Source: the human T2T-CHM13v2.0 reference genome, Homo sapiens
Direction: 5' to 3'
DNA length: 64,000 nt
Assembly: GCA_009914755.4 (NCBI GenBank)
Contig: CP068257.2
Span: 288,001 to 352,000, forward strand
Numbering within the stretch: the first letter of the stretch is position 1; every line of letters starts with the position of its first letter. Position numbers and translations under genes: made by a program. Under the pieces are notes generated by a model. The model was given only the letters and a program-made list of their open reading frames with translations. It searched no databases and was not told the DNA's origin. Positions 18,801-48,439 of the stretch are shown piece after piece.

Positions 18801-21800
18801 CAGGCCAGAAGATATGACAGCCTTGTCTCAGAGGAGACTTTGGCCTTTGGACATTTGAGTAAATGCTGGGATGAGTTAAGATTTGGGGGACTCTAGGGAA
18901 GGCATCATTGCATTTTGCAATGTGAGAAAGACCTGAACTTTGGGGGACCAGGGACAGAATAATATGTTTTTGCTCTGTGTCTCTACCAAAACTCATGTAG
19001 AATTTTAATGGGAAATGTTAAAGGTGGGGGCTGGTGGAAGGTGATTTAATTATGGTGAAGAGTGGAAGTTAGATGGTTAGGGGGTTGGGGAGGGTTGGGG
19101 AGATTAAGGGGTGGGGAGGGTAGGGGGGATTGTGGTGGGGTTGGGGGTGAAAGACAGGGGTGGGGGGTGGATCCTTCTCAAATGGACATTTGAGTAAATG
19201 CTGGAATGAGTTCAGACATTGGGGGACTGTAGAGAATGCATCATTGTATTTTGCAGTATGAGAAGGATGTGATCTTGGGGGGCCAAAGGGAGAATAATAT
19301 GATTTGTCTCTGTGTCCCTACCAAAACTCATGTGGAATTATAATGGGGAATGTTAAGTATGGGGCTTGGTAGAAGGTGATTTAATCATGGTAGAGAATGG
19401 GGGTTGGAAGGGGGATGTGGGAGAATGGAGGTTCATGGTGTGGGTGAGGGTGAAACATGGGGATGGGTGGCAGATCCTTCACAAATGGTTAAATACTATC
19501 TCCTGAATGCAGTCTGTGTGATAGTGAGTTCTCATGATAAATGAATGCTGTCCTGCTGGGTTTTGGAGCCAGATTGGGCCTGTGTCCCATTTGTGTTATT
19601 TTTCTGGGAAAACCTTCCCTTTGGTTTGAGAAAGCCTACCCAGTGCCTGTGCCATCATTGTAACTTGAAAGAAAAGAATTGTCTTTTACATTCAGGGACT
19701 CATAGGCAGAAGGGATTGCAGCCTTCTCTTGGATGAGACTTGAACTTACTACATTTGAGTTACTGCTGGAATGAGTTAAGACTTTTTGAAACTTTTGAAA
19801 AGACATGTTTGTATTTTTCTGTGTGAGAAGGACATGAGATGTGGGGGTGTCAGGGTCAGGATAATATGGTTTGGCTGTGTTTCCCTACAAAAACTCATGG
19901 GGAATTGTATTCCTGACAGTTGTAGGTGGGGCCTGGTGGGAGGTGATTTAATCACAAATGGGAGGTTGGTAGGGGTGGAAGGGAAAACAAATGGGTAGGA
20001 TGGGGAGGAGTAGGCTGGCAGTAGGGTGGTGAGAGTTTCGTGGGCAGTAGTAAGGGGGAGTAGCCTGCTGCAGAGGCAGAGCCTCATGGAAAACCTCTAC
20101 CAGGGCAGTGAACCTATGGCTTTGCAGGGTGTAGCCCCCATGGCTGCCCTCATAGGCTGGGCTGTTGTTGAGTGCCTGTAGCTTTTCCATACTGAGAGTG
20201 CAAGCTGTTGGTGAGTCTATGAATCTGGGGTCTGAGGATGGTAACCTCCTGTGTGGGGCCTCCAAGCCCATATACTTTTTCTGCTCTGCCCTATTAGAGG
20301 TTTTCCTAGTGGCTCTGCCTCTGCCTCAGGCTTCTGCCTGGAAACAGTGAGGGGTGTGGGTGGTAGGGGGCAGAACTTTCACCAATGGTTAGGCAACATC
20401 TTCTTGATACTGACCTTGTGATAGTGAGTTCTCAGGAAATCTGGTTGTATAACAGGGTTATACAACGTGTGGCACCTTTTTCCTCTCTCTGTTTTGTTTC
20501 TACTTCTGCCATATAAAACATCCCATTCCTGCTTGGTTTCTGGTATGATTGGGAGGCTTCCTGAGTCCTCCCAGAAGCAGAAGCCTCTATGATTTATTTA
20601 AAGCTTGCAGAACCATGAGCCAGTTCAACCTCTTTTCTTTCAGATTATATAGAAAAATAATGCTATAAAGTGGAACTATGAAATGCCTTCAAGGCCTTTT
20701 TCCTATTCTCTTGGCAATCAGCACTCAGCTTCTTTTCAGGCAAATATGTGAAGCCTGCATTAATTTTTCTCCTGAAATGGACTTTTCTTCTTTTACCACA
20801 TTGCCAGGCTGTGACAAACGTAGCTGAAAATGTAGAAGCAGGTTGAGAAGTGTGTAATGGCCAGAGGTTGGAGAGTTTGGAGGTCTTGGAAGAAGACAGG
20901 AAGATGAGGAAAAGTTTGGATCAGTGTAGAGACTTGTTAAATAGTTATAATTAAAAAGGTGACAAAAGGATGGACAGTGATCACCAGGCTTAGAAGGTCT
21001 CACATGAAAATGAGGAGCTTGCTGGGAACAGGAGTCAAGGTCACTTCTGTTTTTTCCTTAGCAAAGAATGTTGCTGCACAATGCCCCTAACCTGGAGACC
21101 TGTGAAATTTTGAACATCAGGGTGATAATTTAGAGTGTATTTTGTGGAATGAAATTTTAGGCAGCAAAGCTTAAGAGGTGTCCTGTCTGTTTCGAACAGC
21201 CTGTGGTCCTATATGTGACAAAAGAAATGACCTCAAGGTTAAACTTGTATTTAAATGAGAAGGAGAGCTTAAAAGTTTGCAAAATTTGAAGCCTGGCCAA
21301 GTGGCCAAAAAGAAAAGCTGATTATCAGTGGGAAAGTTCAAAAAGTCTTCAGAAATGTGCATAAAAAGGAGTTCAGTGCTAATAGCCAATACAATGTTAA
21401 AAAGGTCTTGAAGGCATTTCAGAGACTTTTGCAGCAGCCCTTGCTATCACAGGCCCTGAGGCCTGGGAGAAAAGAATGGTTTCCGTCTCCAGCCCCATGG
21501 CCCCGCTGCTATGTCCATCCTCAGGACACTGCTGGCTGCATTCCTGAGGCTCCAACTCCGGCCTTGGGTGAAAGATGCACAGGTACAGCTTGGGTCACTG
21601 CTTCAGAGGGTGCAAGCTGCAAGCCTTGGTGGCTTCCACATAGTGTTAAGCCAGCAGGTGCACAGAGCACAAAACTAGAGGCTGGGGATCCTTTGTCTGG
21701 ACTACAGAGTATGTATGGAAAAACCTTGGTGTCCAGGTGGAAACTTTTCCAAGAGGCAGAGCCTCCTTTACTTAGGCAGTACAGAAGGAACATATACGTT

Positions 21801-24800
21801 TGGAACCCCATACAGGGAGGCAGCATTCTGCAAACGCCAGATTCATAGACTCACTAGCAGCTTGCACCCTGATTGTGGAAAAGCTATAGGTACTCCACAA
21901 CAGCCCAGCCCATGAGGGCAACTGGGGAGGTTAGACCCTGCAAAGTCACAGATGCAGACCTGCCCAAGGCCTTGGGATCCCAGGCCTCATACCCTTGTGC
22001 TCTGGATATGGGATCTGGATTCAAGAAAAGTGATTTGGAGCTGTAGGAATCAATGACTGGCCAGTTGGGTTGTTGACTTTTATGGGGTCTGTAAGTCCCA
22101 ACTGTGTTTTGTACTTCTTTCTGGCAAATTTCTTCCTTTTGGCTGGGAATACTTACCCATGCATGTACAATCATTGTACTTTGGAAGTGCTTGCTTTGTA
22201 TTTCAGAGGCTCAGGGGTAGAACATATGGCAGCCTTGTGTCAGAAGAGACTTTGGGCTTTGGACATTTCAGTAAATGCTGGAATGAGTTAAGAGATTGAG
22301 AAACTGTAGAGAAGGCATCATTGAACTTTGCAGTGTGAGAACAACATGAGATATGAGGGCCAGGGTCAGAATAATATGATTTGGCTCTGCATCCCTACCA
22401 AACTCATGTGGAATTGTAATGGGGAATGTTGAAGGTGGGGTCTGGTGGGAGGTGATTTCATAATGGAGAAGCATGGGGTTTGGAGGTAGGGCTGTGGGGA
22501 GAATGGGGGAGATTATTTTGTGGGTGGGAGTGAAAGATGAGGGTGGGGGTGCAGATCCTTCACAAATGGGTAAACACTATCTCCTTAATGCTGTTCACAT
22601 GACAGTGAGTTCTCTTGATGATGTTGGAGCTGTGAGATTGAGTGAATACTGTCCTGATGGGTTTTGGACTTGCATTGGGCCTGTGGGCCCATTTGTGTTA
22701 TTTTTCTGGGAAATCTCTTCCCTTTGGACTGAGAAATCTTACACAATGCCTCTACCATCATTGTACCTTGAAAGAAAAGAACTCCATTTTAAATTCAGAG
22801 ACTCATAGGCAGAAGGGACTGTGGCCTTATCTCAGATGAGACTTTGAATTTTTTACATTCGGAGTGAGTTAAGACTTTTGCAAACTTTTGAAAAGTCATG
22901 ATTGTATTTTGCTCTGTGATAAGGACATGAGATTCTGAAACATCAGGGTCAGAATTATATGGTTTGCCTGTGTGTCCTTATGAAACTCATGTGGAATTAT
23001 AATCCCTAATGTTGAAGCAAGTGACTTAATTATGGACAGGAGATTGGTGGTGATGGAAGGTAAAAGGGATGGGTAAGATTGAGAGGAGTGGGTTGGCTGT
23101 AGGGTGTTTGGAGGGTGGGGGGTAGTAGGAAGGGGGAGTAGCCTGCTGCAGAGGCAAAGCCTCATGGAAAACCTCCACTAGGGAAGTGCACCTGTGGCTT
23201 TGCAGGTTTTAGCCCCTCAGCTGTTCTCCTGGGCTGGGCTGGTATTGAGGGCCTGTAGCTTTTCCACACTAAGGGCGTGAGTTTGTGCGTCTATGAATCT
23301 GGGATCTGGAGGTTGGTGGCCACCTGTGTGGGGGCTCCAAGCCCATATTTTCTTTCTGTACTTCCATAATAGAGGTTTTCTAAGAGGTTCTGCATCTGAA
23401 GGAGGCTTCTGCCTGGAAACAGTGGGAGTTGGGGGTGTGGGGCGGATCCTTCACCAATGTTTAAGCACCATCTTCTTGATGCTGACTTTGTGATAGTGAG
23501 TTCTCATGAGATCTGCTTGTATAATGCAGCATGACAACTTTTTCCTTTCTCTGTCTTGCTCCTACTCTTGCCATATGAGACATCTCCTTGCCCCTTGACA
23601 TTCTGGTATGATTGGGAGGCTTCCTGTGTTTTGTCAGATGCAGAAGTCATCATGCTTCCTTACAGCCTGCAGAATCATTAACCAATTAAACCTCTTTTCT
23701 TTGTGATCATTGAGAAAATTATGACTGCAAAGTGGATCTATTAAGTGTCTTCAAGGCCTTCTCCCTAACGTCTTGGCAATCAGCACTCAGCTTCTTTTCA
23801 CTCAAGTATCTGAAGCCTCCTTGACTTCTTCCCCAGAAAATGGGCTTGTCTTCCTTTACCACATTGCCAGCCTGCAACAAAGATAGCTGATAATGTAGAA
23901 GCAGGTTCAGAAGGGGGTAGCAGATGGAGTTTGGGAGAGTTTGGCGGACTTCAAAGACAGGGAGATGAGGGAAAGTTTGGATCTTTGTAAAGAATTGTTA
24001 AATACTTGTGATCAGAAGGCTCACAGGAAAATAGACAGTAAGGATCAGATTGAGAAGCTCTGAGATGAAAAGGAGGAACTTACTGCAAACAGGAGCCAAG
24101 GTTACTTTTGTTTTGCTGTAGCAAAGAACGTGGCTGCACAGTGACCCTGCCCTGGAGATCTGTGAAACTTTGAACTTGAGGGTGATGACTTACTGAGTAT
24201 CTGGTGGAATGAACTTCTGGGCAGCAAAGCTCAAGGGGTGTCCTGTCTGTATCAAATAGCCTGTGCCCTTATGTGTGACTGAGGAAATGACATCTGGATG
24301 GGTCTTACATTAAATCAGTCCCAACTCTTATATTATATGAGAAACAGAACTCAAAAATTTGCAGCCTGGCCAAATGGTCAGAAAGAAAAGCTCATTTTCA
24401 GGGGAAAACTGAGGAAGGCTTCAGAAATTTGCATGAAAAGGAGCCCAGTGCTAATAGCCAAGACAATAGGGAAAAGGCCTTGAAGCCATTTCAGAAACCT
24501 TTGCAGCAGCCCTTGCTATCATAGGCTCTGGGGCCTCAGAGAGAAGAATGGTTTCCTGGGCCAGTTCCATGACCCCCCTCTATATGCAGCCTCAGGACAC
24601 TGCTGCCTTCATCCCTGCAGTTCTAGCTCCAGCCATGGCTAAAAGATGCACAGGTACAGCTTGCATCACTGCTTCAGGGGTGCAAGCTTCAAGGCTTGGT
24701 GGCTTCCACATAGTGTTAAGCCAGCAGCTGCACAGAGCACATAACTAGACGCTTGCAAGCCTTTGTCTAGACTCCAGAGTATGTACGGAAAAACCTGGCT

Positions 24801-26480
24801 GTTCACACAGAATCTTTTCCGAGGCAGAGCCTCACGGGAAACTTTTACTAGGGCAGTACAGAAGGAGCATTTAGGGCTGGAGTCCCTAAATATGGAGGCA
24901 CCATTCTCCAGACTCCAGATTCATAGACCCACCAACAGCTGGCACCCTTAGTATGGAAATGCTACAGGCACTCAACATCAGCCCAGCCCATGAGGGCAGC
25001 TGCGGGGGATAGACCCTGCACAGCCACAGGTGCAGAGCTGCCCAAGGCCTTGGAAGCCCAGGCATCACACACCTGTGCTCTAGATGTGAGATGTAGATTC
25101 AGAAAAGATGATTTGGAGCTATAGGATTCAATGACTGGCCTGCTGGGTTTTTGACTTGCATGGGGTCTGTAAGTCCTTGTACATTTCAGTAAATGCTGGA
25201 ATGAGTTAAGTCATTGGGGGACAGTAGAGAAGTCATCAGTGTATTTTGCAGTGTGACAAGGATACAAGATTTGGGGAGCAAGAGCCAGAATAATATGATT
25301 TGATTCTGTGTCCCTACCAATGCTCATGTGGAATTGTAGTGGGGAATGTTAAAGGTGGGACCTGGTGGGAGGTGATTTAATCATGGAGAAGAGTGGGTGT
25401 TGGAGGTAGGGGTGTGGGGAGAATGGGAGAGATTATTTTGTGGGTGGGAGTGAAAGATGAGGGTGGGGGGCAGATTCTTCACAAATGAGTAAACATTATC
25501 TCCTTAATGCTGTCCGCACGACAGTGAGTTCTCTTGATGATTTTGGAGCTGTGAGATTGAGTAAATACTGTCCTGCTGGGTTTTGGACTTGCATTTGTGT
25601 TATTTTTCTGGGCAACTTCTTCCCTTTGGATTGAGAAGCCTTACCCAATGACTGTTGTACCTTGAAGGAAAAGAAATCCCTTCTAAATTCAGGGACTCAT
25701 TGGCAGAAGGGACTGTAACCTTGTCTCAGATGAGACTTTGAAATTTTTACATTCGGAATGAGTTAAGACTTTTGGAAACTTTTGAAAAGGCATGATTGTG
25801 TTTTGCTCTGTGAGAAGGACATGAGGTTCTGGGGAATCAGGGTCAGAATAATATGGGTTGGCTGTTGGCTGTGTGTCCCTATAAAACTCATGTGTCATCC
25901 TTAATGTTGGAGGTGGGCCAGGTGGGAAGTGACTTAATCTTGGATGGGAGGGGGTTGGGGTGGAAGGAAAAGGAGGGATAGTGTGGGGAGGAGTAGGTTG
26001 TCAGTAGGGTGGTGTGAGGGTGGGAGTAACCTGCTGCAGAGGCAGAGGCTCATGGGAAACCTCTACTAGGAGAGTGCACCTGTGGCTTTGCAGGGAGTAA
26101 CCCCCACAGCTGCTCTCATGGGCTGGGTTGGTGTTGAGTGCCTGTAGCTTTTCCATACTGAGAGTGTGAGCTGTTGGTGGGCTTATTAATCTGGAGTCTG
26201 GAGGATGGTGGCCTCTTGTGTGGGGGCTCAAAGCCTCTATTCTCCTTCTGCACTGCCATAGTGGAAGTTTCCTAAGAGGTTCTGCCTCTGCAGGAGGCTT
26301 CTGCCTGGAAGCAGTGGGCAGTGGTGTGGTTGGAGAATCCTTCACCATTGGTGAGTCTTCTTGATGCTGATCTCCTGATAGTGAGTTCTCATGTGATCTG
26401 GTTGTCTAACAGGATGTCACACCTCTTTCCCCTCTCTGTCTTGCTCCTACTCCTGCCATATGAAACATCTCATTGCCGCT
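9040..26480. repeat. Macrosatellite. A head segment is followed by one internally deleted unit (9898-10861) and five units of 2.8-3.4 kb. Units are built from MaLR LTR (MST/THE1-like)-derived sequence plus unit-specific sequence.
   Basis: Unit landmarks of the form ccatgagccaattaaacc...acagaaaat...gaaaatggact...ttgccaggctg...aagatagctga recur at about 9898, 10861, 13938, 17190, 20617 and 23680. The periods are 3077, 3252, 3427, 3063 and about 2800 bp. MaLR hallmarks include actcatgtggaattgtaatcccaaat, ggaggtggggcctggtgggag, tgatttaatcatgg, gatccttcaccaatggttaagcaccatc, tgatagtgagttctcatgagatctggtt, ggcacctctttcctctctc, and ggaggcttcctgagtcctcccagaagcagaag. Confidence 0.75.
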
Positions 26481-26504
26481 TGGCCTTCTGATATGGTTAG
26501 GAGG

Positions 26505-27315
26505 GGCCTGATCAGTGTGGGCCTGCTCAGTGGACCTACTCAGCTGGGACTTGTCAGTGAGGCCTATTTAGTGGGGGTGGTCAGCAGGGGTCTGCTTAGA
26601 GCGGGTGTCATTAGAGGGATCTAGTAGTGCATGTCTTGGTGAGTGGGTTGATAGTGGCAGACAAATGTTTGGTGTCTGGTCAGTGCCAACCTGGGCTGTG
26701 GGACTCGGTCAGTGGAGACCTTGTCAGCTGGGGCTTAGTGGTGGCCTTGTCAGATTGGGCTGGGTTACTGGTGACTAGGTCAAGGGGCGCTATTCAGTGG
26801 AGGCCTGGTGACATGGGACCTAGTCAGCAGAGACGCTTATCAGTGGGGCCCTGGTCAGGGCAGGCTTGTCCGTGGAACTTAATCAGTGGGGGCCTGGTCA
26901 GAGAGGACTTGATCAGTGGTGGCTTTTGTAGCACTGGTCTACGGGTTGACCTGGTCAGCGGGGATCTGAGCAGTGCGTGCCTGTTCAGTGGGGCGTAGTC
27001 ATTAGGATCCCAGTCAGGGGCATCTTGTCACCTCAGGCCTGGTTAGCAGGGGCCTGGTCACTGGCTGTCTATTCCCTGCAGGCCTGGTCCGTGGGGCTTC
27101 GTCTGTGGGACCAGAAAATGGGGTCATGATCGGTGGAACCTGATCAGTGAGGCCTTGTCAGTAAGGTCCTCGTCAGTGGAGTCCTGGTCATTGTGGGCCT
27201 GGCAGCGGGAATCTAGTTAGTGAGGCCTGGTGATGGGGCTCTAATCAGTGAGGGTGTGGTCAGGGAGGAAGTGATATGCTGGATCTGGTCACCAGGGACC
27301 TGGTCAGTGGGGGCT
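26505..27315. repeat. G-rich minisatellite GGCCTGGTCAGTGGGG(N), locus 2, directly abutting the last macrosatellite unit
   Basis: The same unit as at 5070-5550. The junction reads ggttaggagg|ggcctgatcagtgtgggcctgctcagtgg. Confidence 0.75.
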
Positions 27316-27680
27316 GCTGAGTACTGCTGGGAGATGTCAGGGGAAATGCATGTTATCGAGGAGCCTGTGGACAGCTGGGGTGGCCCAGTCGTGTTCAATG
27401 GCCCACTCAAAAGTGGACAAAGCAGGTGTTTTGATGGACCTGGGAGATCTTGCTCAGAGATTCTGACAGGACAAAGGTAAAGGAAGGGCCAGAGTGGTCG
27501 GAGAGATAGTCACAGTCTATGGTCTGCACAGGATGGAGGAGGCCAGGGAACAGGCAGGGTGGGCAGCTGGGTTTCAGGGAGAGGCAGGTGCATGCTGGGA
27601 GGTCAGACCCTATGAGGGCTGTGGGGGCGTCAGGTGGTGTGGGCTCCAGGTGCACCCTCAGTGCACTGGGCAGGTCTTGG
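27316..27680. repeat. Duplicated unique block B, copy 1; paralog at 42216-42550
   Basis: Runs from atgcatgttatcgaggagcctgtggacagctggggtggcccagtcgtgttcaatggcccactcaaaagtggacaaagcaggtgtttt to ggtgtgggctccaggtgcac. It matches 42240-42550 closely. Confidence 0.75.
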
Positions 27681-27725
27681 CCCAGGCTCCCTGGACCTTG
27701 GCCGGGTGATGTGGTCACTTGCTGG
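27508..27725 (+). repeat. Left arm of an inverted repeat; partner at 28280-28505
   Basis: ggatggaggaggccagggaacaggcagggtgggcagctgggtttcagggagaggcaggtgcatgctgggaggtcagaccctatgagggctgtgggggcgtcaggtggtgtgggctccaggtgcaccctcagtgcac is the reverse complement of 28340-28470. Also, ccgggtgatgtggtcac at about 27705 pairs with gtgaccacatcacccagccgg at about 28290. Confidence 0.8.
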
Positions 27726-28279
27726 GAGACTGTTGTCAGGTGCTGGCCACCCACCCTGGGTAGCACTGTCCCATCTCAGGACTGGACTTCCTCAGATACT
27801 GCAGAGGGCACAGCCTCCAGCCCAGGAGGGGCAGCCCCTTTGTGCAGCCTGAGCTCTCCATGGGCCTGGAGCATCCCCTGCCAGCCCTGCACTCCCTCTT
27901 CTCCCAGTTCCCGCTTTTCCAGGGTCAGCCAGTGGGGAGGTCCCGTCCTCCCTTCCCTATGTGTCTCCTGGGCTGAAACTTGCAGTGCACTGGGACAGGG
28001 ATGAGGCTTCCCTAAGGCCCATTTAGGGAGAGGACTGGCTCCCAGCCTGGCACAGGTCCTCAGCTCTGCCTTGGTAGCCTTAGAATGAGATGGATCAGTC
28101 AGTGCCCTGAAGGTAAAGGTAGAAGACTGTCCCTGCTGTTGGGAGGCTGGTCTAGGGATGGAGGACTTCACAGGTCCTCCCAGTCTGTCAGGCCTGGGCA
28201 GCACTGTCCTGTTTTAGGACTCAGAAAGTCCAGTTCTGGGATGGGATGGTGCTGCCCAGGGAGGGTGGCTAGGGTCTGA

Positions 28280-28505
28280 CAGCATTCCCCCAGGGAGTGA
28301 CCACATCACCCAGCCGGGGTCCAGGAAGCCTGGCCTGAGACCTGCCCTGTGCACTGAGGGTGCACCTGGAGCCCACTCCACCTGATGCCCCCACAGCCCT
28401 CACAGGTCCTGACCTCCCAGCATGCACCTGCCTCTCCCTGAACTCCAGCTGTCCACCCTGCCTGTTCCCTCACGTCCTCCATCCTGTCCAGCAGGATGGG
28501 ATGGG
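28280..28505 (-). repeat. Right arm of the inverted repeat; spacer about 550 bp
   Basis: ORF 28306-28527 (-) encodes ...EDVREQAGWTAGVQGEAGACWEVRTCEGCGGIRWSGLQVHPQCTGQV. This is nearly identical to ORF 27494-27709 (+), which encodes ...EEAREQAGWAAGFQGEAGACWEVRPYEGCGGVRWCGLQVHPQCTGQV. Confidence 0.8.
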
Positions 28506-29439
28506 CAGGGGGACAGCCTGTGTGCACATTTCATGGCAAGCAGGAGTGACACACCATCCCTGGGAGGCGCCTTGGTTCCTCCAAAACCCGGCCCCAGAAC
28601 TCTGTCCTTGGGGTGGTTTTACCAAACCCCAAACCCAGAACTGTGGTTGTGGCTCAGGGGTCAGCACCCGCTAGTTCTACAACGTCGCCAAGGACTTTGA
28701 CTGTACATTGTTCTTCTTTCCAATAGTCATTCCAAATATTGTGAGATGCATTGTTTCAGGAAGCCCCTTGCCCTCCTAAAAGCCACCCTACTTCTCTCTA
28801 AGGAGAATGGCCCAGTCCTCTCCCGAGTTCACACAGGTTAGGTGATAGCATTGCTTTTGTGTAAATTACGTAATGCAAAATTTTTTAAATCTTTGCCTTA
28901 ATACTTTTAAATTTTGTTTTATTTTGAATGACTAGCCTTCATGGCCCCCCTTTTTTGTACCCCAACTTGGAGTGTATGAAGGGTTTTGGTCTCCCTGAGA
29001 GTGGCTCGAGGCAGCCAGCGCTTACCTGTACTCTGACTTGAGAAAAGTTGGATAAAAGTGCACACCTTAAAAAAAATTGAATGACGAAGCACTAACAAAA
29101 ACAGTATTCCAGTACAGTGGACAGCTTAGCATTTTGACAATTGGGAATAAAATGCTCATTTCTGAACTGTACAATGTAAGACACAAAAATGAAACACTGG
29201 AAATGGAAATTCAATTATGTCATTATAGACTGGCTACTGCTCTACATGACTGTGACCAAAGTCAGATAGTTGAAAGAGATTTCTTTCCAGAGAACAAGAC
29301 ATGAACAGGTTTATTTACAGAAAACAATGAATTCTCATATATCTAACCTAAAATATAGCAGATTCTTTCCGAATAGGTCTAACATAGACAGTAAAGTTAA
29401 CAGGCTAAAAATTAAGCTCCATCAAAGAAGATGAACTCT

Positions 29440-36064: not shown

Positions 36065-39000
36065 AACCTCAGGGGAAATGTACCTGTAGTGAAATGCATG
36101 GTACAAACAAGCATTCCCTGCTTCCTTGAGTGGGCGACGTTGATGGCTAGTCCAACCACTTCAGGCACACCCTTGCAAACACGGCTGGTTTCTCTTTGAG
36201 CCAGCTTGGCCTTGCCTGGCATACACAAGCCTCAATGCAACAACTGTGCTAAAAATGGAGCCACACAGAGGAAATGAGCAGCAAGCTCAGAAGCAGGATG
36301 TGCACTGCCTTTGGGGCTCCAGTCCATGCCTCAGGGCTTGTATGGGACTGCAGGATTCTTGGTTGCCAAGAGGTAGACCATAGACCAGCTGAGGAGGACT
36401 TTATGTTCAAGGGCAGAAAGCAGCCAGGATTACCACCCAGGGGACTCGGCCTTCTGTGGCCCCGGCCAGACTTAGAATTTGGCTCAGGGCAGGACCAGCT
36501 CACTCGGAGCAGTGTGTCAGTAGCTGGGGCCTGTACATGCTAGGCAAGGCTAAGCTGGCTCAAAGAGCAACCAGCCACCACTGCAAGGGTGTTCCTGGAT
36601 GAGGTGGAGCAGCCAGAAACTTCAGCTATACAAGGAAGCAGGGATGGCCATGTTCCCACAGCATGAGTGGCCACCGCTTGATGGCTGATCAAGCAGAGGC
36701 CTGAGGAAAAGCAGATGGAACTTGGGCCCTACCTCTAGGGTAGAAGAACTGATGAACCCTGACCGGTAGCAAGTGAGGTTGGTGGTGGGTCCACCGGCTC
36801 CTGGCACACCCTTGCAGAGGAGGCTGTTTGCTCTTTAAGCCAGCTTGGCCTTGCCTGGCATGCACAGGCCCCAGGTACAGACACGCCGCTCCCAGTGAGC
36901 TTGTTCTGCCTTGGACCAAATTCTAAGTGGCTTAGAATTTGCCCAGCATGCACAAGCCTCAGTGTAATAACTGTGCAACAAATGGAGCCACATAGACGAA
37001 AACGAGCAGCAGGCTCAGAAGCAGGGTGTGCCCTGCCTTTGGGGCTCCAGTCGATGCCTCAGGGCTCCTATGGCACTGCGGGTTTCTTGGTTGCCTAGCT
37101 GCAGACCACAGGCTGTATTGAGGAGGACTTTATGTTCAAGTGCAGAAAGTAGTCAGGATTACCATCCAGGGGACTCTGCCTTCTGTGGTCCTCTCCAGAC
37201 TTAGAATTTGGCCCAAGGCAGGACAAGCTGACTCGGAGCAGAGTGTCAGTACCTGGGGCCTATGCATGCCAGGCAAGGCCAAGCTGGCTCAGAGCAACCA
37301 GCCACCTCTGCAAGGCTGTGCCTGTAGCAGGCGGACAAGCCAGCAACCTCACCCACTCAAGGAAGCCCAGATGGCCAGGTTCCAACAGCATGAGTAGCTG
37401 CCACCTGATGGCTGATGGAGCAGAGTCCTGAGGAAAAGCAGATGGCACTGGGGCCCTAACTCTCGGGCAGAAGAACTGATGTACCGTTACTGGCAGCATG
37501 TGAGGTTGGTGATTGGCCCACCTGTTCCTGGCATACCCTTGCAGAGGTGGCTGGTTGCTCTTTGAGCCAGCTTGGCCTTGCCTGGCATGCACAAGCCTCG
37601 GTGCAACAACTGTGCCACAAATGCAGCCATATATAGGAAAGGAGCAGGAGGCTCAGGAGCAGGGTGTCCACTGCCTTTGGGGCTCCAGTCCATGCCTCAG
37701 GGCTCCTATGGCACTGCAGGTTTCTTTGTTGCCAAGAGGCAGACCAAAGGCCATCTTGAGGAAGATTTTATGTTCAAGTGCAGAAAGCAGCCAGGATTAC
37801 CACCCAGGGGACTCGGCCTTCTGTGGCTCTGGCCTCACAGAATTTGGCCCAAGGCAGGACAAGCTCACTCAGAGCAGTGTGTCAGCAGGTGAGGCCTGTG
37901 CATGCGAGGCAAGGCCAAGCTGGCTCAAAGAGCAAGCAGCCACCTCTGCAAGTGTGTGCCTGGAGCAGGTGGACCAGCCACCAACCTCACCCACTGAAGG
38001 AAGCCAGGATGGCCAGGTTTCCACAGCCTGAGTGGCTGCCTCCTGATGGCTGATGGAGCAGAGGCCTGAGGAAAAGAAGGTGGTATATTTAACTATTTAA
38101 TCCATCTTAAGTTAATTTTTGTATGAAGCAGATGGCACCAGTCCATGCCTCAGGGCTCATATGGCACTGTGGGCCACAGAAGGGCGAGTACCCAGGGTGG
38201 TAATCCTGCCTGCTTTCTGCACTTGAACATAAAGTCCTCCTCAAGACGACCTGTGGTCTGCCTCTTGGCCCCATCTTTAGGGTAGAAGAACTGATGTACC
38301 ACGTCTGGCAGTGAGTGAGGTTGGCGGCTGGTCCATCTGCTCCTGGCACACCCTTGCAGAGGTGGCTGCTTGCTCTTTGAGCCAGCTTGGCCTTGCCTGG
38401 CATGCACAAGCCTCACTGCAACAAATGTGCTACAAATGGAGCCATATAGAGGAAATGATCAGCAGGCTCAGGAACGGGGCATGCACTGCCTTTGTGGCTC
38501 CAGTCCATGCCTCAGGGCTCGTATGGCACTGTAGGCTTCTTGGTCGCCAAGAGGCAGACCACAGGCTTTCTTGAGGAGGACTTTATGTTCAAGTGCAGAA
38601 AGCAGCCAAGATTAGTACCCAGGGGACTGGGCCTTCTGTGGCCCTGGCCAGACTTATAATTTGACCCAAGGCAGGACAAGCTGACTCGGAGCAGAGTGTC
38701 AGTACCTGGGGCCTATGCATACCAGGCAAGGCCAAGCTGGCTCAGAGCAAATAGCCACATCTGCAAGGCTGTGCCTGTAGCCGGCGGACAAGCCAGCAAC
38801 CTCAGCTACTCAAGGAAGGAGGGATGGCCAGGTTCCCACTACCTGAGTGGTTGCCGCCTGATGACTGATAGAGCAGAGGCCTGAGGAAAAGCATATGGCA
38901 CTGGGGCCCTACCTCTAGGGTAGAAGAACTGATGTAACCTGACCAGCAGCGAGTGAGGTTGGTGGCCGGTCCACCGGCTCCTGGCACAACCTTGCAGAGG

Positions 39001-39420
39001 TGGCTGCTTGCTTTTTGAGCCAGCTTGGCCTAGCCCGGCATGCACAAGTCTGTGCAACAACTGTGACACAAATGGAGCCACACAGAGAAAACGAGCAGCG
39101 GGCTCAGGAGCAGGGTGTGTGCTTCCTCGGGGGCTCCAGTCCATGCCTGAGGATTCATATGGCACTGCGGACTTCTTGGTTGCAAAGAGGTAGACCACAG
39201 GCCATCTTCAGGAGGTCTTTATGTGGAAGTGCGGAAAGCAGCCAGGATTACCACCCGTGGGACTCGGCCTTTTGTGGCCCTGGCCTGACAGAATTTGGCC
39301 CAAGGAAGGACAAGCTCACTCAGAGCAACATGTCGGTACCTGGGTCCTGTGCATGCCAGGCAAGGCAAAGCTGGCTCAAAGAGCACCCAGAGCATCCATT
39401 CTGGTGGAGGAGCCAACCAC
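36065..39420. repeat. Tandem array of about 4.5 units of a 630-820 bp unit, each with an internal roughly 60 bp inverted repeat
   Basis: The landmark gccagcttggccttgcctggcat(g/a)cac occurs at about 36195, 36840, 37567, 38385 and 39018. Each unit contains ccttgcagaggtggctggttgctctttgagccagcttggccttgcctggcatgcac and its reverse complement ggcctgtgcatgccaggcaaggccaagctggctcaaagagcaaccagccacctctgcaagg about 300 bp apart. Confidence 0.8.
38140..38275 (-). other. Local inversion of unit sequence, plus a roughly 45 bp L1-like scrap at 38080-38125, inside the 730 bp array
   Basis: ccatgcctcagggctcatatggcactgtgggccacagaagggcgagtacccagggtggtaatcctgcctgctttctgcacttgaacataaagtcctcctcaagacgacctgtggtctgcctcttgg is the reverse complement of the unit segment ccaagaggcagaccacaggccatcttgaggaggactttatgttcaagtgcagaaagcagccaggattaccacccaggggactcggccttctgtggcc. 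The L1-like scrap reads atccatcttaagttaatttttgtatgaag. Confidence 0.7.
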
Positions 39421-41700: not shown

Positions 41701-42215
41701 GAGGGGCCTGATCAGTGTGGGCCTGGTCTGTGGACCTAGGTCAGTGAGGACTATTTAGTGGGATAGTGGTCAGCAGGGGTCTGCTTAGAGAGGGTCTCAT
41801 TAGTGGGGTCTAGTATTGGGGGTTTTGGTGAGTGGGAACCTATTGGCTGCCAGTTGTTTGGTGTCTGGTCAGTGCAAACGTGGGCTGTGGGGCTTGATCA
41901 GTGGAGATCTGGTCAGCTGGGGCTCAGTGCTGGCCTGATCAGCATGGGCTGGGGCACTGGTGACCAGGTCAAGGGGTGCTATTCAGTGGAGGACTGGGCA
42001 CATGGGACCTAGTCAGCAGACCCTGGTGGGCGTGTCCTCATCAGTGAGGTCTTGTCAGTAAGGTCCTGGTCAGTGGAGTCCTTGTCATTGTGTGCCTGGC
42101 AGTGGGGACCTTGTTAGTGGGGCCTGATCATGAGAGTCTAATCAGTGAGGGTGTCGTCAGGGAGGACCTGATGTGCGGGGTCTGGTCAGCAGGGACCTGG
42201 TCACTGTGGGCTGCT
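41701..42215. repeat. G-rich minisatellite GGCCTGGTCAGTGGGG(N), locus 3
   Basis: The same unit as at 5070-5550 and 26505-27315. It is followed by block B'. Confidence 0.75.
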
Positions 42216-42550
42216 GAGCACTGCTTGGATAAGCCAGGTGCAATGTGCATTATTGAAGGCCCTGTGGACAGCTGGGATAGCCCAGTGATGCCCAAGCGCC
42301 TAGTCAAAAGTGGACAAAGCACGTGTTTGGATGGACCTGGGAGATCCTGCTCAGAGATTCTGACAGGACAAAGATAAAGGAAGGGCCAGAGTGGCTGGAG
42401 AGATGGTCACAGTCTATGGGCTGCACAGGATGGAGGAGGCCAGGGAACAGGCAGGGTGGGCAGTTGCGGTTCAGGGAGAGGCAGGTGCATGCTGGGAGGT
42501 CAGACCCTGTGAGGGCTTTGGGGGCGTCAGGTAGGGTAGGCTCCAGGCAC
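42216..42550. repeat. Duplicated block B', copy 2
   Basis: Runs from ggccctgtggacagctgggatagcccagtgatgcccaagcgcctagtcaaaagtggacaaagcacgtgtttgg to gggtaggctccaggcac. It parallels 27340-27660 and diverges from copy 1 at about 42548, where the satellite begins. Confidence 0.75.
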
Positions 42551-42551
42551 T

Positions 42552-45500
42552 CTCACTCACATAGGATTCCAGAACACTGCTACAAGGCTCTGAGTGTTTG
42601 TCCCTCACATAGCATTCCAGAACACTGCTGCCATTGTCTGAATGTTTGTCCCCCACATAGGATTCCAGAAGCCTGCTGCTGGGGTCTGAATGTTTGTCCC
42701 CCATCTAGGATTCCAGAACACTGCTGCGAGGGTCTGAATGTATGTCCCTCACATATGATTCTAGAACATTGATGCTAGGGTCTGTATGTTTGCCCTTAAT
42801 GTATGATTTCAAAACACTGCTCCTGGATTCTGAATGTTTGTCCTTCACATAGGAATACAGAACACTGCTGCTGGAGTCTGAATGTTTGTCACTCACATAG
42901 AATTCCAGAACACTGCTGCGAGGATCTGAATATTTGACCCTCATATGGGATTCCAGAACACTGCTGCGAGGGTCTAAATGTCTGTCCCTCACATAGGTTT
43001 CCAGCACAATGTTACGAGGTTCTGAATGTTTGTCCCTAACATAGGATTCCAGAGCACTCCTGCTGTGCTCTGAATGCTTCTCCCTCACATAGGATTCCAG
43101 AACACTGCTACGAGGGTCTGAATGCTTATCCCTCATATGGGATTCCAGAATACTCCTGCTGTGGTCTGAAAGTTTGTTCCTCACATAGGATTCCAGAACA
43201 CTCCTGCCGTGGTCTGAATGTTTGTCCCTCACATAGGATTCCAGAACATTCATGCTGGGGTCTCAATGTTTCCCTTAACATAGGATTTCAGAACACTGCT
43301 CTTGGGGTCTGAATGTTTGTCCCTCACATAGGATTACAGAACACTGCTGCTGGAGTCTGAATGTTTGTCAGTCACATAGAATTCCAGAACACTGCTACAA
43401 GGGTGTGAATATTTCTCCCTCACCTAGTATTCCAGAACACTGTTGCAAGGGTCTGCATGTTGGTCCGTCATATAGGATTCCAGAACACTGCTGCTGTGGT
43501 CTGAATGTTTGTCCCTCACATAGGATTCCGGAACACTGCTACAAGGGTCTGAATGTTTGTCCTTCACATACCATTCCAGAACACTGCTGCCGTGGTCTGA
43601 ATGTATGTCCCTCACATAGGATTCCAGAACACTGCTACTAGGTTCTGAATGTTTCTCCCACACCTAGGATTCCAGAACACTTCTGCTGGTGTCTGAATGG
43701 TTGTCCCTCACATATGATTCCAGGACACTGCTACGAGAGTCTTAATGTTTGTTCTTCACATAGCATTCCAGAACACTGCTGCTGGGGTCTGAATGTCTGT
43801 CCCTCAAATCGGATTCCAGAACACTGCTGCTGGGGTTTGAATGTCTTTCCCTCACATAGAATTCCAGAACATGGTTGGGAGGGTCTGAATGTTTGTCCCT
43901 CACATGGGATACCAGAACACTGCTGCGAGGGTCTAAATGTCTCTCCCTCACATAAGATTCCAGGACACTACTGCGAGATTCTGAATGTTTGTCCCTCACA
44001 TAGGATTCCAGAGCACTCCTGCTGTGGTCTGAATATTTGTCCCTCACATAGGATTCCAGAACACTGCCACGTGGGTCTGAATGTTTGCCCTCACATAGGA
44101 TTCCAGAACACTACTGCTGGGGTCTGAATGTTTGACCCTCACATAGGATTCCAGAAGACTCCTGCTGTGGTCTGAAATTTTATTCATCACATAGGACTCC
44201 AGAACACTGCTAAGAGGGTCTGAATGTTTGTCCCTCACATAGTATTCCAGAACACACCTTCTGTGGTCTGAATGTTTGTTCCTCACATAGGATTCGAGAA
44301 CACTTCTGCTGTGGTCTGAAAGTCTGTTCATCACATAGAACTCCAGAACACTGCTAAGAGGGTCTGAATGTTTGTCCCTCACATAGTATTCCAGAACACT
44401 CCTGCTTTGGTCTAAATGTTTGTTCCTCACATAGGATTCGAGAACACTCCTGTTGTGGTCTGAATGTTTGTCCCTCACCTAGGATTCGAGAACATTCACG
44501 CGGGGATGTGAATGCTTGCACTTAACATAGGATTTTAGAACACTGCTCCTGGGGTCTGAATGTTTGTCCCTCACATAGGATTCCAGAACTCTCCTGCTGT
44601 GGTCTGAAAGTTTGTACCACACATAGGATTCCAGAACTCTCCTGCTGTGGTCTGAATGTTTGTCTGTCACATAGGATTCCAGAACACTGCGGCTGGGCTC
44701 TAAATGTTTGTCCCTCACATTGGATTGCAGAACACTACTGCTATGGTCTGAACGTTTGTCCATCACATAGGATTCCAGAATGTTCATGCTGTGGTCCGAA
44801 AGTTTGTCTGTCACATAGGATTCCAGAACACTGTGGCTGGTGTCTGAATGTCCCTGACATAGGATTCCAGAACACTGCTATGAGGGTCTGAATGTTGGTC
44901 CCTCACACAGGATTCCAGAACCCTCCTGCTGGGGTCTGAATGTTTGTCTCTCACAAAGGATTCCAGAACACTGCTATGAGGGTCTGAATATTTGTCCCTC
45001 ACATAGGATTCCAGAACACTCCTGCTGTGGTCTGAATGGTTGTCCTTCACATAGGATTCCAGAACACTTTCGCTGTGGTACAAATGTTTGTGTCTCATGT
45101 AGGATTCCAGAACACTGCTACGAGGGTCTCAATGTTTGTCCCTCACATAAGATTCCAGAACACTGCTGCTGGGGTCTGAATGCTTGTCCCTCACATAAGA
45201 TTACAGAACACTGTTGCTGGGGTGTGAATGTTTGTCCCTAACATAAGATTCCAGACCACTGCTGCTGGGGTCTCAATGTCTGTCCCTCAAAAAGGATTCC
45301 AGAACACTGCTGCTGGGGTTTGAATGTCTGTCCCTCACATAGAATTCCAGAAGACTGCTGGGAGGGTCTGAATGTTTGTCCCTCACATGGGATTCCAGAA
45401 CACTGCTGCGAGGGTCTAAATGTCTGTCCCTCACATAAGATTACAGCACACTGCTACGAGGTTCTGAATGTTTGTCCCTCACATAGGATTCCCGAGCACT

Positions 45501-46648
45501 CCTGCTGTGGTCTGAATGTTTTTCCCTCACATAGGATTCCAGAACACTGCTACGAGGGTCTGAATGTTTGTCCTTCACATAGGATTCCAGAACAGTCCTG
45601 CTGGGGTCTGAATGTTTGTCCCTCACATAGGATTCCAGAGCACTCCTGCTGTTGTCTCAATGTTTGTTAATCACATAGGATTCCAGAACACTGCTACAAG
45701 GGTCTGAATGTTTGTCCCTCACATAGGATTCCAGAATACTCCTGCTATGGTCTTAATGCTTGTCCCTCACATAGGATTCCAGAACATTCATGTTGGGGTC
45801 TGAATGTTTGCCCTTATCATAGGATTTCAGAACAGTGCTCTTGGAGTTTGAATGTTTGTCCTTCACATAGGATTTAAGAACACTCCTGCTGTGGTCTGAA
45901 AGTTTGTCCCTCACATAGGCCCAAAACACTGTTGCTGGGGTGTGAATGTTTACCCCTAATATAGGATTCCAGAACACTGTTGCTGGGGTGTGAATGTTTG
46001 CCCCTAACATAGGATTCCAGACCACTGCTGCTGGTTTCTCAATGTCTGTCCCTCAAAAAGGATTCCAGAATACTGCTACAAGGGTCTGAATGTTTGTCAC
46101 TCACTTAAGACTCCAGAACACTGTTTTGAGGGTCTAAATGTCTGTCCTTCACATAGGATTGCAGAACACTGTTAGGAGGGTCTCAATGTTTTTCCTTCAC
46201 ATAGCATTCCAGAACACTGCTATGAGGGTCTGAATGTTTGCCCCACACCTAGGATTCCAGAACACTTCCGATGGTGTCTGAATGTTTGCCCCTCACATAG
46301 GATTCCAGAACACTCCTGCTGTGGTCTGAATGTTTGTCCCTCACATAGGATTCCAGAACATTCCTGCTGTGTTCTGATTGTTCCTCACATAGGATTCCAG
46401 AACACTGCTACGAGGTTCTGAATTTTTGTCCCTCACACAGGATTCCAGAACACTGCTACAAGGGTTTGAAAGTTTGTCCCTCACATAGGATTCCACAACA
46501 CTACTGCTGGGGTCTGAATCTTTGTCCCTCACATAGGATTCTAGAACACTCCAGCCGGCTTCTGAGTGTTTGTCCCTCACATAGGATTCCTGAAGACTGC
46601 TGCTGTCACTATAGTCGTTGTGAGTGTCTGAATGTTTGACCTTCACCA
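42552..46648. repeat. 48 bp satellite, about 85 units, consensus approximately CACATAGGATTCCAGAACACTGCTGCTGGGGTCTGAATGTTTGTCCCT; candidate CER 48 bp satellite, identity unverified
   Basis: The period was counted directly: from cacatagg to the next cacatagg is 48 bp. Minus-strand ORFs show a 16-aa periodicity (HSDPRSSVLESYVRDK), which equals 48 bp. Confidence 0.85.
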
Positions 46649-46849: not shown

Positions 46850-47830
46850 CATGCATGAGAATAAAGGGAAAAAATTGCAAGGCATACTAAAATCCAAAAA
46901 AGGAAAAAAATACAATTTGTGTCAACAGAGCAAGCTTCAGAAGCAGACAAATGTATGATTTTGGAATTTTTTTAAACCCCTGGAGAATATGCTAAGGGCC
47001 TAATCAATGAAGTAGACAGCATTCAAGTGTAGATGGGTAATGTAATCAGAAAGACAGACATCGTAAGAACCTTCAACATAATGTAGTGATAAAAAATGTA
47101 AATAACTGAAGAATACCTCTGATGGCTTATTAGTAGACTGGACTCAGCTGAGTAAAGAATCTCTGAGCTTGAGGATTTATCATCAGAAACTTCAAAAACT
47201 AAAGAAAAGAAACACTGAAAAGAACAGAAGATGATATCCAAGACTGTGGGACAACTACAAAAGGTGAAAGAGAGTAATGAGAATACCAGGAGGAGAAGAA
47301 ATAGAAGAAAGTTCTGCAACAACCATTTCTGAGAACTTCCAGTATTAATGTCAGACACCAAACCAAAGATCCAGGAAGCTCCGAGAACACCAGGCAGAAT
47401 AAATGCCAACAACCTACACTTGGACATATAATTTTCAAACTCTATGAAATAAAAGATAAAGGAAAACTCTGAAAGAAACCAGAGGTGGGGCAGAAAACAC
47501 CTTACCTACAGAGACACAAAGATAAGAACTGCATTCAACATTGCAGAAACTGTGAAAGCAAGAAGACAGTGAAATGAAAAATTCCAAATATTGACAGAAA
47601 AAAACCCACCAACCTAAGTTTCTGTACCCACTGAAAACACCCTTCAAAAGTGAAGGAGAATTAAGGCCTTCCTCAGAAAAATAAAAATTCAAGAAACTTG
47701 TTGTCAGGACAGCTGTCTTGCAAGAAATGTTAAATGAAATTCTTTAGAGGGAAACAAAAGATATATAACTGAAACCTGGATCAACATTTTTTTAAAAAGA
47801 GCATTAAAGAAAGAATCGTGGTACAATAAA
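46850..47830 (+). mobile_element. Ancient LINE-1 (L1M-type) ORF1 region, degenerate
   Basis: Translation with stops resembles L1 ORF1: ...RISELEDLSSETSKTKEK...NTRRRRNRRKFCNNHF.ELPVLMSDTKPKIQEAPRTPGRINANNLHL...TAFNIAETVKARRQ...ENTLQK.RRIKAFL.KIKIQETCCQ... Confidence 0.55.
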
Positions 47831-48135: not shown

Positions 48136-48136
48136 G

Positions 48137-48420: not shown

Positions 48421-48439
48421 TTGCAAATTCTGTGGCAAC

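What the first reader, a model, noticed from the sequence alone, without database searches (positions are those of the whole stretch)
27508..28505. A roughly 200 bp inverted-repeat pair with a spacer of about 550 bp, next to minisatellite locus 2
Arm 27508-27725 is the reverse complement of 28280-28505 at about 90% identity. The two ORFs translated from the arms are near-identical at protein level, which is a trivial consequence of the inversion. The left arm is part of duplicated block B. The inverted right arm has no counterpart near copy 2. It therefore arose as a local inverted duplication in copy 1 only. The spacer 27725-28280 is GC-rich but CpG-poor. Such a structure can extrude as a hairpin or cruciform and is a known hotspot class for rearrangement.
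Basis: seen in the sequence. Interest (0 to 1): 0.5.

Follow-up and report, generated by a model that had tools for sequence, protein, structure and literature searches.

The report
Old inverted duplication in pericentromeric duplicated DNA
A real but old and decayed inverted repeat (two 272-base arms, 86% alike, 424 bases apart) that is a shared building block of a primate duplicated-DNA family, not a recent event or a proven breakage hotspot.

Summary
The inverted repeat is real and larger than reported: arms 27524-27795 and 28220-28491 (272 nt, ungapped, 86.4% identical), spacer 424 nt.

A 24-mer scan recovered 89 host-derived contigs from human-associated metagenomes. The same module, with a 420-425 nt spacer and arms 81-89% identical, occurs in many diverged paralogues. 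One lineage (L014/L070/L082) is as far from copy 1 as from copy 2. Window copy 2 lacks the module because its homology stops inside the arm at 42555, where a 48-bp CER-type satellite carrying mir-1299 begins.

I found no coding signal, no RNA family and no maintenance of arm pairing.

A 424-nt spacer, 14% divergence and a longest perfect run of 34 nt lie far outside the range where inverted repeats are fragile in duplex DNA.

Some contigs show the spacer flipped, with mosaic arms. This may reflect exchange between the arms, but short-read assembly chimeras explain it equally well.

Short snap-back palindromes at both ends of the right arm suggest a template-switch origin. The feature is ordinary and of low interest.

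The parts
27524..27795 (+). Left arm (A). The outer 137 nt (27524-27660, 'A1') is shared with copy 2. The inner 135 nt (27661-27795, 'A2') is not.
   Evidence: 272 nt, 86.4% to the reverse complement of 28220-28491; 27401-27660 against 42298-42555, 92%
27796..28219 (.). Spacer S: 424 nt, GC 0.60, CpG observed/expected 0.05. No significant similarity to the arms except the short copy D at its right end.
   Evidence: Length is 420-425 nt in all 24 two-arm contigs.
28184..28221 (+). D: a short third, direct partial copy of the arm's inner end. The core 28193-28221 matches 27755-27783. A further match at 28184-28192 implies a 14-nt deletion. D abuts the right arm and forms a tight local palindrome with it.
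   Evidence: D8; local hairpin z = -3.6; present in all 23 modules; 22-26 of 29 identical to the arm; TG versus CA consistent with CpG decay; chance E about 1e-3 to 4e-7
28222..28231 (.). Centre (loop, CAGAAAGTCC) of the local palindrome formed by D and the inner end of the right arm.
28220..28491 (-). Right arm (A'), the reverse complement of the left arm.
28479..28499 (.). 8-bp snap-back hairpin spanning the outer junction of the right arm (CCATCCTG-TCCAG-CAGGATGG). CAGGATGG also repeats the first bases of the left arm in direct orientation.
   Evidence: conserved in most paralogue types; a perfect hairpin of at least 8 bp across the junction occurs in 0.2% of shuffles
27144..27523 (+). Block B, the left flank. 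It is duplicated at 42041-42419. The B|A junction at 27523/27524 is the outer limit of the inverted repeat.
28492..28675 (+). Flank F. It travels with the right arm in all paralogues. Beyond 28675 contigs continue either as in the window (15) or into another flank, 'H' (25).
42041..42555 (+). Copy 2 of block B plus the outer arm (A1). Homology to copy 1 ends at 42555.
42556..46605 (.). 48-bp satellite (84.6 units) that replaces the inner arm, spacer and right arm in copy 2. It contains a mir-1299 precursor match at 44899-44981 (-).
   Evidence: PMC3059204 states that hsa-mir-1299 derives from the CER repeat.

Best explanation
This is an ancient inverted duplication that forms a fixed module (arm, 424-nt spacer, inverted arm) of a primate pericentromere-type segmental-duplication family. 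The mir-1299/CER satellite next door marks that family.

The module formed once, before the family's copies diverged and before the copy 1 / copy 2 split seen in this window. It was then copied passively along with the surrounding segment. The two arms have since decayed independently to about 86% identity, with no sign of coding, RNA or pairing constraint.

Copy 2 in the window lacks the module because its homology is truncated inside the arm, at the junction with the 48-bp satellite.

The inverted copy most likely arose by a replication template-switch or fold-back event. This step is inferred from the short palindromic snap-back junctions at both of its ends.

In duplex DNA the present structure is not expected to extrude as a cruciform. 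It could only pair if the whole ~1 kb became single-stranded.
For: Shown:
- The inverted repeat is real.
- The same module occurs in 17 complete and about 24 two-arm host-derived contigs, with a 420-425 nt spacer and arms 81-89% identical within each contig.
- Those contigs include paralogues only about 88% identical to the window (L034, L070, L082).
- The lineage L014/L070/L082 has block B about equally distant from copy 1 (87%) and from copy 2 (88-89%).
- In the tree of block B plus outer arm, the satellite-joined form (window copy 2 plus 28 contigs) is one tight clade nested among relatives that carry the inverted repeat.
- L010 and L042 share 6 private block-B variants, so at least one copy-2-like paralogue with the module is a distinct locus.
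- The three-way comparison in the window is star-like.
- Nothing downstream of the copy-2 satellite matches copy 1.
- No Pfam domain in six arm or spacer ORFs.
- No Rfam family above noise.
- Arm complementarity is 82-90% across 23 modules; 122 of 272 pairs vary, and only 12 show a second Watson-Crick type.
- Only two flank types occur beyond F, and there is no target-site duplication.

Inferred: the template-switch origin, from copy D plus the palindrome centre at the inner junction and the 8-bp hairpin at the outer junction.
Against: - The panel consists of short-read metagenome contigs of a multi-copy family, many at low coverage, so inter-paralogue chimeras are likely.
- Some 'copy-2-like B + inverted repeat' contigs (L009, L038, L068) are almost identical to the satellite-type locus except near the junction. 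They could be chimeric, which weakens the nesting argument.
- The ancestry claim then rests mainly on L014/L070/L082/L034 and L010/L042.
- No contig is more than about 98.4% identical to the window, so the panel may come from a different species or from other paralogues than the window.
- No outgroup with a single-copy arm was available, so the ancestral state and the mechanism of origin are not shown directly.
- No repeat-library (Dfam/RepeatMasker) check was possible.
Confidence: 0.7

Rival explanations
1. One reading: a recent local inverted duplication that arose in copy 1 only, after the block duplication, and that acts as a hairpin or cruciform rearrangement hotspot.
For: - Within the window no inverted arm lies near copy 2.
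- As a single strand the module folds into a long stem.
Against: - The arms are 14% diverged (K2P 0.152), as much as copy 1 against copy 2 (13%).
- The module is present in deeply diverged paralogues and in copy-2-like copies.
- Copy 2 is truncated inside the arm.
- The spacer length is invariant in 24 of 24 contigs.
- The 424-nt spacer and 86% identity are outside the fragile range in duplex DNA (PMC10164571).
Confidence: 0.07
2. The arms are an active recombination substrate. Exchange between them (crossover giving spacer inversion, or gene conversion) has repeatedly flipped the spacer or patched the arms in different paralogues or haplotypes.
For: - Five contigs have block B on the opposite side of the spacer, and five have flank F on the opposite side.
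- In 10 of 10 of these the arm is a mosaic in the predicted direction: the outer part follows the flank and the inner part follows the spacer end. The switch lies between arm positions 39 and 157.
- The flipped arrangements recur in 4-5 independent assemblies.
- They are concentrated in some paralogue types (Fisher P = 0.02 and 0.05).
- The L019 left arm carries a 167-nt patch identical to right arms.
- Yeast data show that 86%-identical, widely spaced inverted repeats can anneal in long single-stranded DNA.
Against: - Left arms of some paralogues share exact runs of 54-165 nt with right arms of others, enough for a k=55 de Bruijn graph to cross over.
- The two halves of each flipped contig match standard-orientation contigs of different paralogues, at 99-99.9% and 97-99%. 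Assembly chimeras predict exactly this.
- No contig shows a complete flipped locus with both unique flanks.
- L056 and L057 have flank F on both sides, which simple inversion does not predict.
- In the best-sampled paralogue 0 of 14 and 1 of 18 crossings are flipped.
- Mismatch clustering in the window is only marginal.
Confidence: 0.3
3. The 272-nt pair is the remnant of a longer palindrome (arms of at least 456 nt, A+F). The block B junction at 27523/27524 truncated the left arm.
For: - L056 and L057 contain inverted arms of 456-461 nt (86.6-88.6% identical) that include F on both sides.
- L064 and L077 also show F' to the left of the left arm.
Against: - In both L056 and L057 the two sides carry variants of different paralogues. 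One side is the 'flipped half' pattern, so they may be chimeras joined within the spacer.
- No such form occurs in the window.
Confidence: 0.15
4. A functional hairpin-RNA locus (a long double-stranded RNA, a small-RNA or miRNA-like precursor, or an editing substrate) kept because of its pairing.
For: - A predicted 272-bp imperfect stem.
- A conserved small hairpin at 28185-28283.
- A miRNA gene (mir-1299) lies in the same duplicated family.
Against: - No Rfam match above noise (18-21 bits against gathering scores of 94-100).
- Pairing is not maintained: 82-90% across copies, with few compensatory changes, mostly singletons.
- No expression data were available.
Confidence: 0.04
5. A non-autonomous DNA transposon with long terminal inverted repeats.
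For: The arm-spacer-arm layout of about 1 kb resembles an element with long terminal inverted repeats.
Against: - There is no target-site duplication at the ends of either the 272-nt or the 456-nt form.
- Only two flank types occur beyond F in 40 contigs, and block B or F always adjoins the arms.
- No transposase-like ORF.
- All 89 recovered contigs belong to one duplicated-segment family.
Confidence: 0.04

Closest known systems
Fragile long inverted repeats (closely spaced inverted Alu pairs studied in yeast; palindromic AT-rich repeats)
   Same: Two inverted copies a few hundred bases long on one DNA molecule, able to pair if single-stranded.
   Different: - The fragile cases have spacers of about 0-20 bp and near-identical arms.
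- In duplex DNA, lengthening the spacer from 12 to 100 bp lowers recombination about 300-fold, and divergence lowers it exponentially (PMC10164571).
- Here the spacer is 424 nt, identity is 86%, and the centre is not AT-rich.
- The geometry is unchanged in 24 of 24 copies.
Widely spaced, divergent inverted repeats that anneal in long single-stranded DNA or next to a double-strand break
   Same: Arm length (about 300 nt), 86% identity and a spacer of 0.4 kb fall inside the range shown to interact in yeast once the region is single-stranded (PMC10164571; PMC6103520 for 0.5-1 kb spacers).
   Different: Those results need extensive resection or an induced break, and were obtained in yeast. Nothing here shows that this locus experiences such events.
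Inverted-repeat-mediated (NAHR) polymorphic inversions in humans
   Same: An inverted pair flanks a segment that could flip. Some contigs show both orientations, with the switch inside the arms.
   Different: Documented cases exchange in regions of high identity within kilobase-scale repeats, for example a 782-bp stretch at 99.9% identity (PMC3961182). Here the longest perfect run is 34 nt, and the flipped forms may be assembly artefacts.
Template-switch inverted duplications (FoSTeS/MMBIR products, direct-inverted-direct structures, short template-switch events). Named from my own knowledge; not checked in the paper library.
   Same: An inverted copy lies close to its source, with short palindromic or templated pieces at both junctions.
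   Different: The event is ancient. The pre-event sequence is unknown, so junction microhomology cannot be read with confidence.
Primate pericentromeric segmental duplications carrying CER satellite and mir-1299
   Same: The window contains a 48-bp satellite with a mir-1299 precursor match next to the duplicated blocks (PMC3059204). Many paralogues were found in human-derived contigs.
   Different: The chromosomal location and species of the window could not be established with these tools.

Membership tests
Cruciform/hairpin-prone fragile inverted repeat | Short spacer (roughly 20 bp or less; strong loss of effect by 100-200 bp) | tested here: not met
   The spacer is 424 nt. Thresholds are from PMC10164571.
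Cruciform/hairpin-prone fragile inverted repeat | Near-identical arms, especially next to the centre of symmetry | tested here: not met
   Identity is 86.4% and the longest exact run is 34 nt. Mismatches are denser in the inner half (25 against 12).
Cruciform/hairpin-prone fragile inverted repeat | Evidence of breakage: central deletions or variable spacer among copies or haplotypes | tested here: not met
   The spacer is 420-425 nt in 24 of 24 two-arm contigs, and the arms are full length.
Inverted-repeat-mediated (NAHR) inversion | Both orientations of the intervening segment exist, with exchange points inside the arms | tested here: inconclusive
   Ten contigs show flipped flanks with mosaic arms. 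Assembly chimeras are equally compatible.
Inverted-repeat-mediated (NAHR) inversion | Long tracts of very high identity between the arms | tested here: not met
   Within one locus the longest exact run is 17-54 nt, typically 34.
Segmental-duplication family member | Multiple paralogous copies of the same segment with shared junctions | tested here: met
   Copy 1 and copy 2 in the window. Several paralogue classes with the shared junctions B|A, A1|satellite, F|G and F|H occur among 89 contigs.
DNA transposon with terminal inverted repeats | Target-site duplication and dispersed copies in unrelated flanks | tested here: not met
   No target-site duplication. Only two flank types lie beyond F, and the arms always adjoin B or F.
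DNA transposon with terminal inverted repeats | Match to a curated repeat consensus (Dfam/Repbase) | not testable with these tools
   No eukaryotic repeat library was available.
Structured RNA / miRNA-like hairpin | Match to a curated RNA family, or pairing maintained by compensatory change | tested here: not met
   Rfam gives only 18-21 bit noise. Pairing is 82-90% across copies, and only 12 of 272 pairs have a second Watson-Crick type.
Structured RNA / miRNA-like hairpin | Transcription and processing | not testable with these tools
   No expression data.
Template-switch / fold-back inverted duplication | Inverted copy near its source, with snap-back or short templated sequence at the junctions | tested here: met
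   Copy D plus the palindrome centre at the inner junction, present in all 23 modules. An 8-bp hairpin at the outer junction occurs in 0.2% of shuffles.
Template-switch / fold-back inverted duplication | Pre-event sequence showing microhomology at the switch points | not testable with these tools
   No outgroup with the unduplicated state was available.

The most novel reading that the evidence does not exclude
A short (272-nt), 14%-diverged inverted pair nevertheless mediates recurrent flipping of its 424-nt spacer and patchy gene conversion between the arms across paralogues or haplotypes of a pericentromeric duplication family. That would make it an inversion-toggling element far below the arm length and identity usually thought necessary.
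Probability: 0.25. Interest if true: 0.45.

Novelty: new member of a known kind. Interest (0 to 1): 0.2.

Why it matters
As it stands, very little: it is an ordinary, old inverted micro-duplication carried along in duplicated pericentromeric DNA.

Two things are useful:
- **A correction:** absence of a feature from a truncated paralogue says nothing about when the feature arose.
- **Junction markers:** the breakpoints at 27523/27524, 27660/27661 (= 42555/42556) and 28675/28676 mark segmental-duplication junctions and could help reconstruct the history of this family.

If long reads confirm the flipped forms, the locus would show that short, diverged inverted repeats can still drive inversions in duplicated regions.

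Tried and rejected
1. **Genome scan:** scanning 185,579 bacterial and archaeal genomes for the shared 24-mer gave 0 hits.
2. **Origin of the 48-bp unit:** I tested whether it derives from arm sequence, and whether anything downstream of the copy-2 satellite resumes homology with copy 1. Neither is the case.
3. **Spacer as a degenerate arm copy:** a local alignment found only the 17-nt core of D (score 29 against a shuffle maximum of 28). D became convincing only with the paralogue panel.
4. **Mismatch clustering as evidence for gene conversion in the window:** marginal (P about 0.03-0.05 after post-hoc choice of window size), and the same tract is also less variable among paralogues. Not used.
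5. **Coding and RNA signals:** Pfam on six ORFs and Rfam at a low threshold gave nothing.
6. **Pair-counting tool:** The count of structure pairs failed on a mis-pasted structure string. I counted the pairs in a script instead.
7. **Flipped contigs:** I first read them as real inversions. I withdrew that after finding long exact runs shared between left and right arms of different paralogues, and after finding that each half matches a standard contig of a different paralogue.
8. **The 456-nt-arm form (L056, L057):** first read as ancestral, then downgraded for the same reason.
9. **Some 'copy-2-like B + inverted repeat' contigs:** found to be possibly chimeric. The ancestry argument was re-based on L014/L070/L082/L034 and L010/L042.
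10. **Papers:** one search was rejected for term length.

Full report
**1. Observation**

The inverted repeat is real. The repeat finder reports one pair, 27524-27795 against 28220-28491. It is 272 nt, ungapped and 86% complementary, with 424 nt between the arms. blastn gives 86.4% over 272 nt with E = 7e-91.

The 37 mismatches are 24 transitions and 13 transversions, four of them in CpG context, and the K2P distance is 0.152. The spacer is 424 nt rather than about 550.

Folded as a single DNA strand, the 968-nt module forms the expected long stem (-371 kcal/mol against -208.5 +/- 4.8 for shuffles, z = -34).

**2. Context in the window**

The window looks like primate DNA, with Alu-like dispersed repeats at 49-64 kb. 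A self-comparison shows one duplicated segment:
- 6821-9771 plus 26372-27660 (copy 1) corresponds to 36129-42555 (copy 2), at 82-87% identity.
- Copy 1 is interrupted by a roughly 3.2-kb tandem array (10187-26513).
- Copy 2 is followed at once by a 48-bp satellite (42556-46605, 84.6 units).

Rfam finds a mir-1299 precursor inside that satellite (44899-44981, minus strand, 89.8 bits). A published survey states that hsa-mir-1299 derives from the CER satellite and has chimpanzee and orangutan homologues (PMC3059204).

Only the outer 137 nt of the left arm (27524-27660) is shared with copy 2. The right arm also matches copy 2 only over the corresponding 137 nt (28355-28491 against 42555-42420, 87%). 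Both arms therefore lose copy-2 homology at the same point, which is exactly where the satellite starts. Nothing downstream of the satellite resembles the region downstream of copy 1, and the 48-bp unit is not derived from the arm.

**3. Related sequences**

A 24-mer identical in the left arm, the right arm and copy 2 was scanned against public collections. Bacterial and archaeal genomes gave nothing. Metagenome contigs gave 89 loci, from human skin, gut and similar assemblies. These are evidently host DNA.

Eighteen of the 80 listed loci carry the 24-mer twice, in opposite orientation 822-827 nt apart. The spacing in the window is 826 nt.

No contig is more than about 98.4% identical to the window. 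Window copy 2 is 97.9% (median) identical to 28 contigs that are 99.6% identical to one another. The window is therefore probably another ape or an unsampled paralogue, and the panel informs about the family rather than about alleles of this exact locus.

**4. Age and ancestry**

I cut the region into modules (U, B, arm A, spacer S, A', F, G, and satellite M) and mapped them on every contig.
- Seventeen contigs contain the complete B-A-S-A'-F arrangement.
- In 24 contigs with two arms the spacer is 420-425 nt, and the two arms of a contig are 81-89% identical.
- This includes paralogues only about 88% identical to the window (L034, L070, L082).

The arms are thus as diverged from one another as the deepest paralogues are from each other.

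In a neighbour-joining tree of block B plus the outer arm, the satellite-joined form (window copy 2 plus 28 contigs) is one tight clade. It is nested among relatives that continue into the inner arm and spacer.

On closer inspection, some of these relatives (L009, L038, L068) are almost identical to the satellite-type locus except near the junction, and may be assembly chimeras. Two lines of evidence remain:
- L010 and L042 share six private block-B variants.
- The lineage L014/L070/L082 is about equally distant from copy 1 (87%) and copy 2 (88-89%), while copy 1 and copy 2 are 86.6% identical. That lineage carries the whole module within single contigs.

Within the window, the three-way comparison is star-like (unique differences: L 2, R 9, copy 2 9), so it gives no order of events.

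Taken together, the inverted duplication predates the split of the block-B lineages. Copy 2 lacks it because it is truncated, not because the duplication arose later in copy 1.

**5. Function**

- Six ORFs across the arms and spacer have no Pfam match.
- Rfam at a permissive threshold gives only 18-21 bit noise at a small local hairpin.
- Across 23 aligned modules (alignment A3) arm complementarity is 82-90%. 122 of 272 pairs vary, and only 12 show a second Watson-Crick type, mostly as singletons.

There is no sign that pairing is maintained.

Beyond flank F there are only two continuations (as in the window in 15 contigs, another flank in 25), and there is no target-site duplication. This argues against a dispersed transposon.

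**6. The hotspot claim**

In yeast, Alu inverted repeats in duplex DNA lose about 40-fold of their recombination activity when the spacer grows from 12 to 20 bp, and about 300-fold at 100 bp. Activity falls exponentially with divergence (PMC10164571).

The prevailing view is that only spacers under about 20 bp are strongly destabilising. Repeats with 0.5-1 kb spacers can interact after a nearby break, and 86%- or 75%-identical repeats can anneal in long single-stranded regions (PMC6103520; PMC10164571).

This locus has a 424-nt spacer, 86% identity and a longest perfect run of 34 nt. It is therefore not a plausible cruciform site. The invariant geometry across copies argues against chronic breakage.

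Ten contigs do show block B or flank F on the 'wrong' side of the spacer. In all ten the arm is a mosaic whose outer part follows the flank and whose inner part follows the spacer end. Exchange within the arms would produce exactly this. These forms recur in independent assemblies and are concentrated in some paralogue types.

There are strong counter-arguments:
- Left arms of some paralogues share exact runs of 54-165 nt with right arms of others.
- The two halves of each flipped contig match standard contigs of different paralogues, at 99-99.9% and 97-99%.
- No contig shows a complete flipped locus.
- Two contigs have F on both sides, giving 456-461 nt arms, which simple inversion does not predict.

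Short-read assembly chimeras explain all of this equally well, so I leave arm-to-arm exchange as unresolved (about 0.3).

**7. Origin**

A 29-nt direct copy of the arm's inner end (D, 28193-28221, extending to 28184 with a 14-nt deletion) abuts the right arm. It forms a tight palindrome with it around 28222-28231. D is present in all 23 modules, matches the arm at 22-26 of 29 positions, and differs mainly by TG versus CA, as expected from CpG decay.

At the other end of the right arm, an 8-bp hairpin (CCATCCTG-TCCAG-CAGGATGG) spans the junction with F. It is conserved in most paralogue types, and a hairpin of this kind appears in only 0.2% of shuffles.

Snap-back structures at both junctions of an inverted copy are what replication template switching or fold-back priming leave behind (established knowledge of such rearrangements, not tested here). 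An alternative is an originally near-perfect palindrome later stabilised by insertion of the spacer. Neither can be tested without an outgroup.

**8. Verdict**

The feature is an ordinary, ancient inverted micro-duplication that belongs to a pericentromere-type segmental-duplication family. It is a new instance of a well-known kind and of low interest (0.2).

The only reading that would raise interest is real, recurrent spacer flipping mediated by such short, diverged arms. Long-read data can settle that.

Noticed in passing
window 42556-46605 (hit at 44899-44981, minus strand): A 48-bp satellite of 84.6 units contains an Rfam mir-1299 precursor match (89.8 bits, just above the gathering score of 89). 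A paper states that hsa-mir-1299 derives from the CER satellite, so this array is probably CER-type and the miRNA hairpin is made of two adjacent units.
   Followed up: partly
window 10187-26513: A tandem array of about five units of roughly 3.2 kb (77-80% identical) sits inside copy 1 of the duplicated segment. Copy 2 has only about 350 nt of related sequence (41154-41510).
   Followed up: no
window 36129-39390 and 6821-7437: Tandem units of about 640-730 bp (82-86% identical), with one unit at the start of copy 1. An internal inverted pair lies at 36773-36931 / 37832-37990 (159 nt, 86%).
   Followed up: no
window 26500-27320 and 41568-42130: A degenerate array of 14-15-nt units (GGNCCTGGTCAGTGG-like) lies just upstream of block B. 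Contigs differ from window copy 2 by about 345 nt here, which suggests variable repeat number.
   Followed up: no
window 27523/27524, 27660/27661 (= 42555/42556), 28675/28676: Three sharp homology breakpoints are shared by many contigs. They look like junctions of the segmental-duplication family. Beyond 28675, 25 contigs continue into a different flank that is absent from the window.
   Followed up: partly
whole window against loci L001-L089: No human-derived contig is more than about 98.4% identical to the window. Yet 28 contigs of the satellite-joined type are 99.6% identical to each other and only 97.9% identical to window copy 2. The window may come from a non-human ape or from an unsampled paralogue.
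   Followed up: partly
window 54077-54692; 47818-48423; 62177-62388: Further tandem repeats: 62 bp x 9.9 (95% matches), adjacent 157-bp and 100-bp repeats, and a 58-60-bp repeat x 3.5.
   Followed up: no
window 42530-42555 against 27633-27660: Copy 2 carries a cluster of private substitutions in the last ~25-45 nt before the satellite junction. The true breakpoint may lie slightly upstream of 42555, or the junction may have formed by an error-prone process.
   Followed up: no
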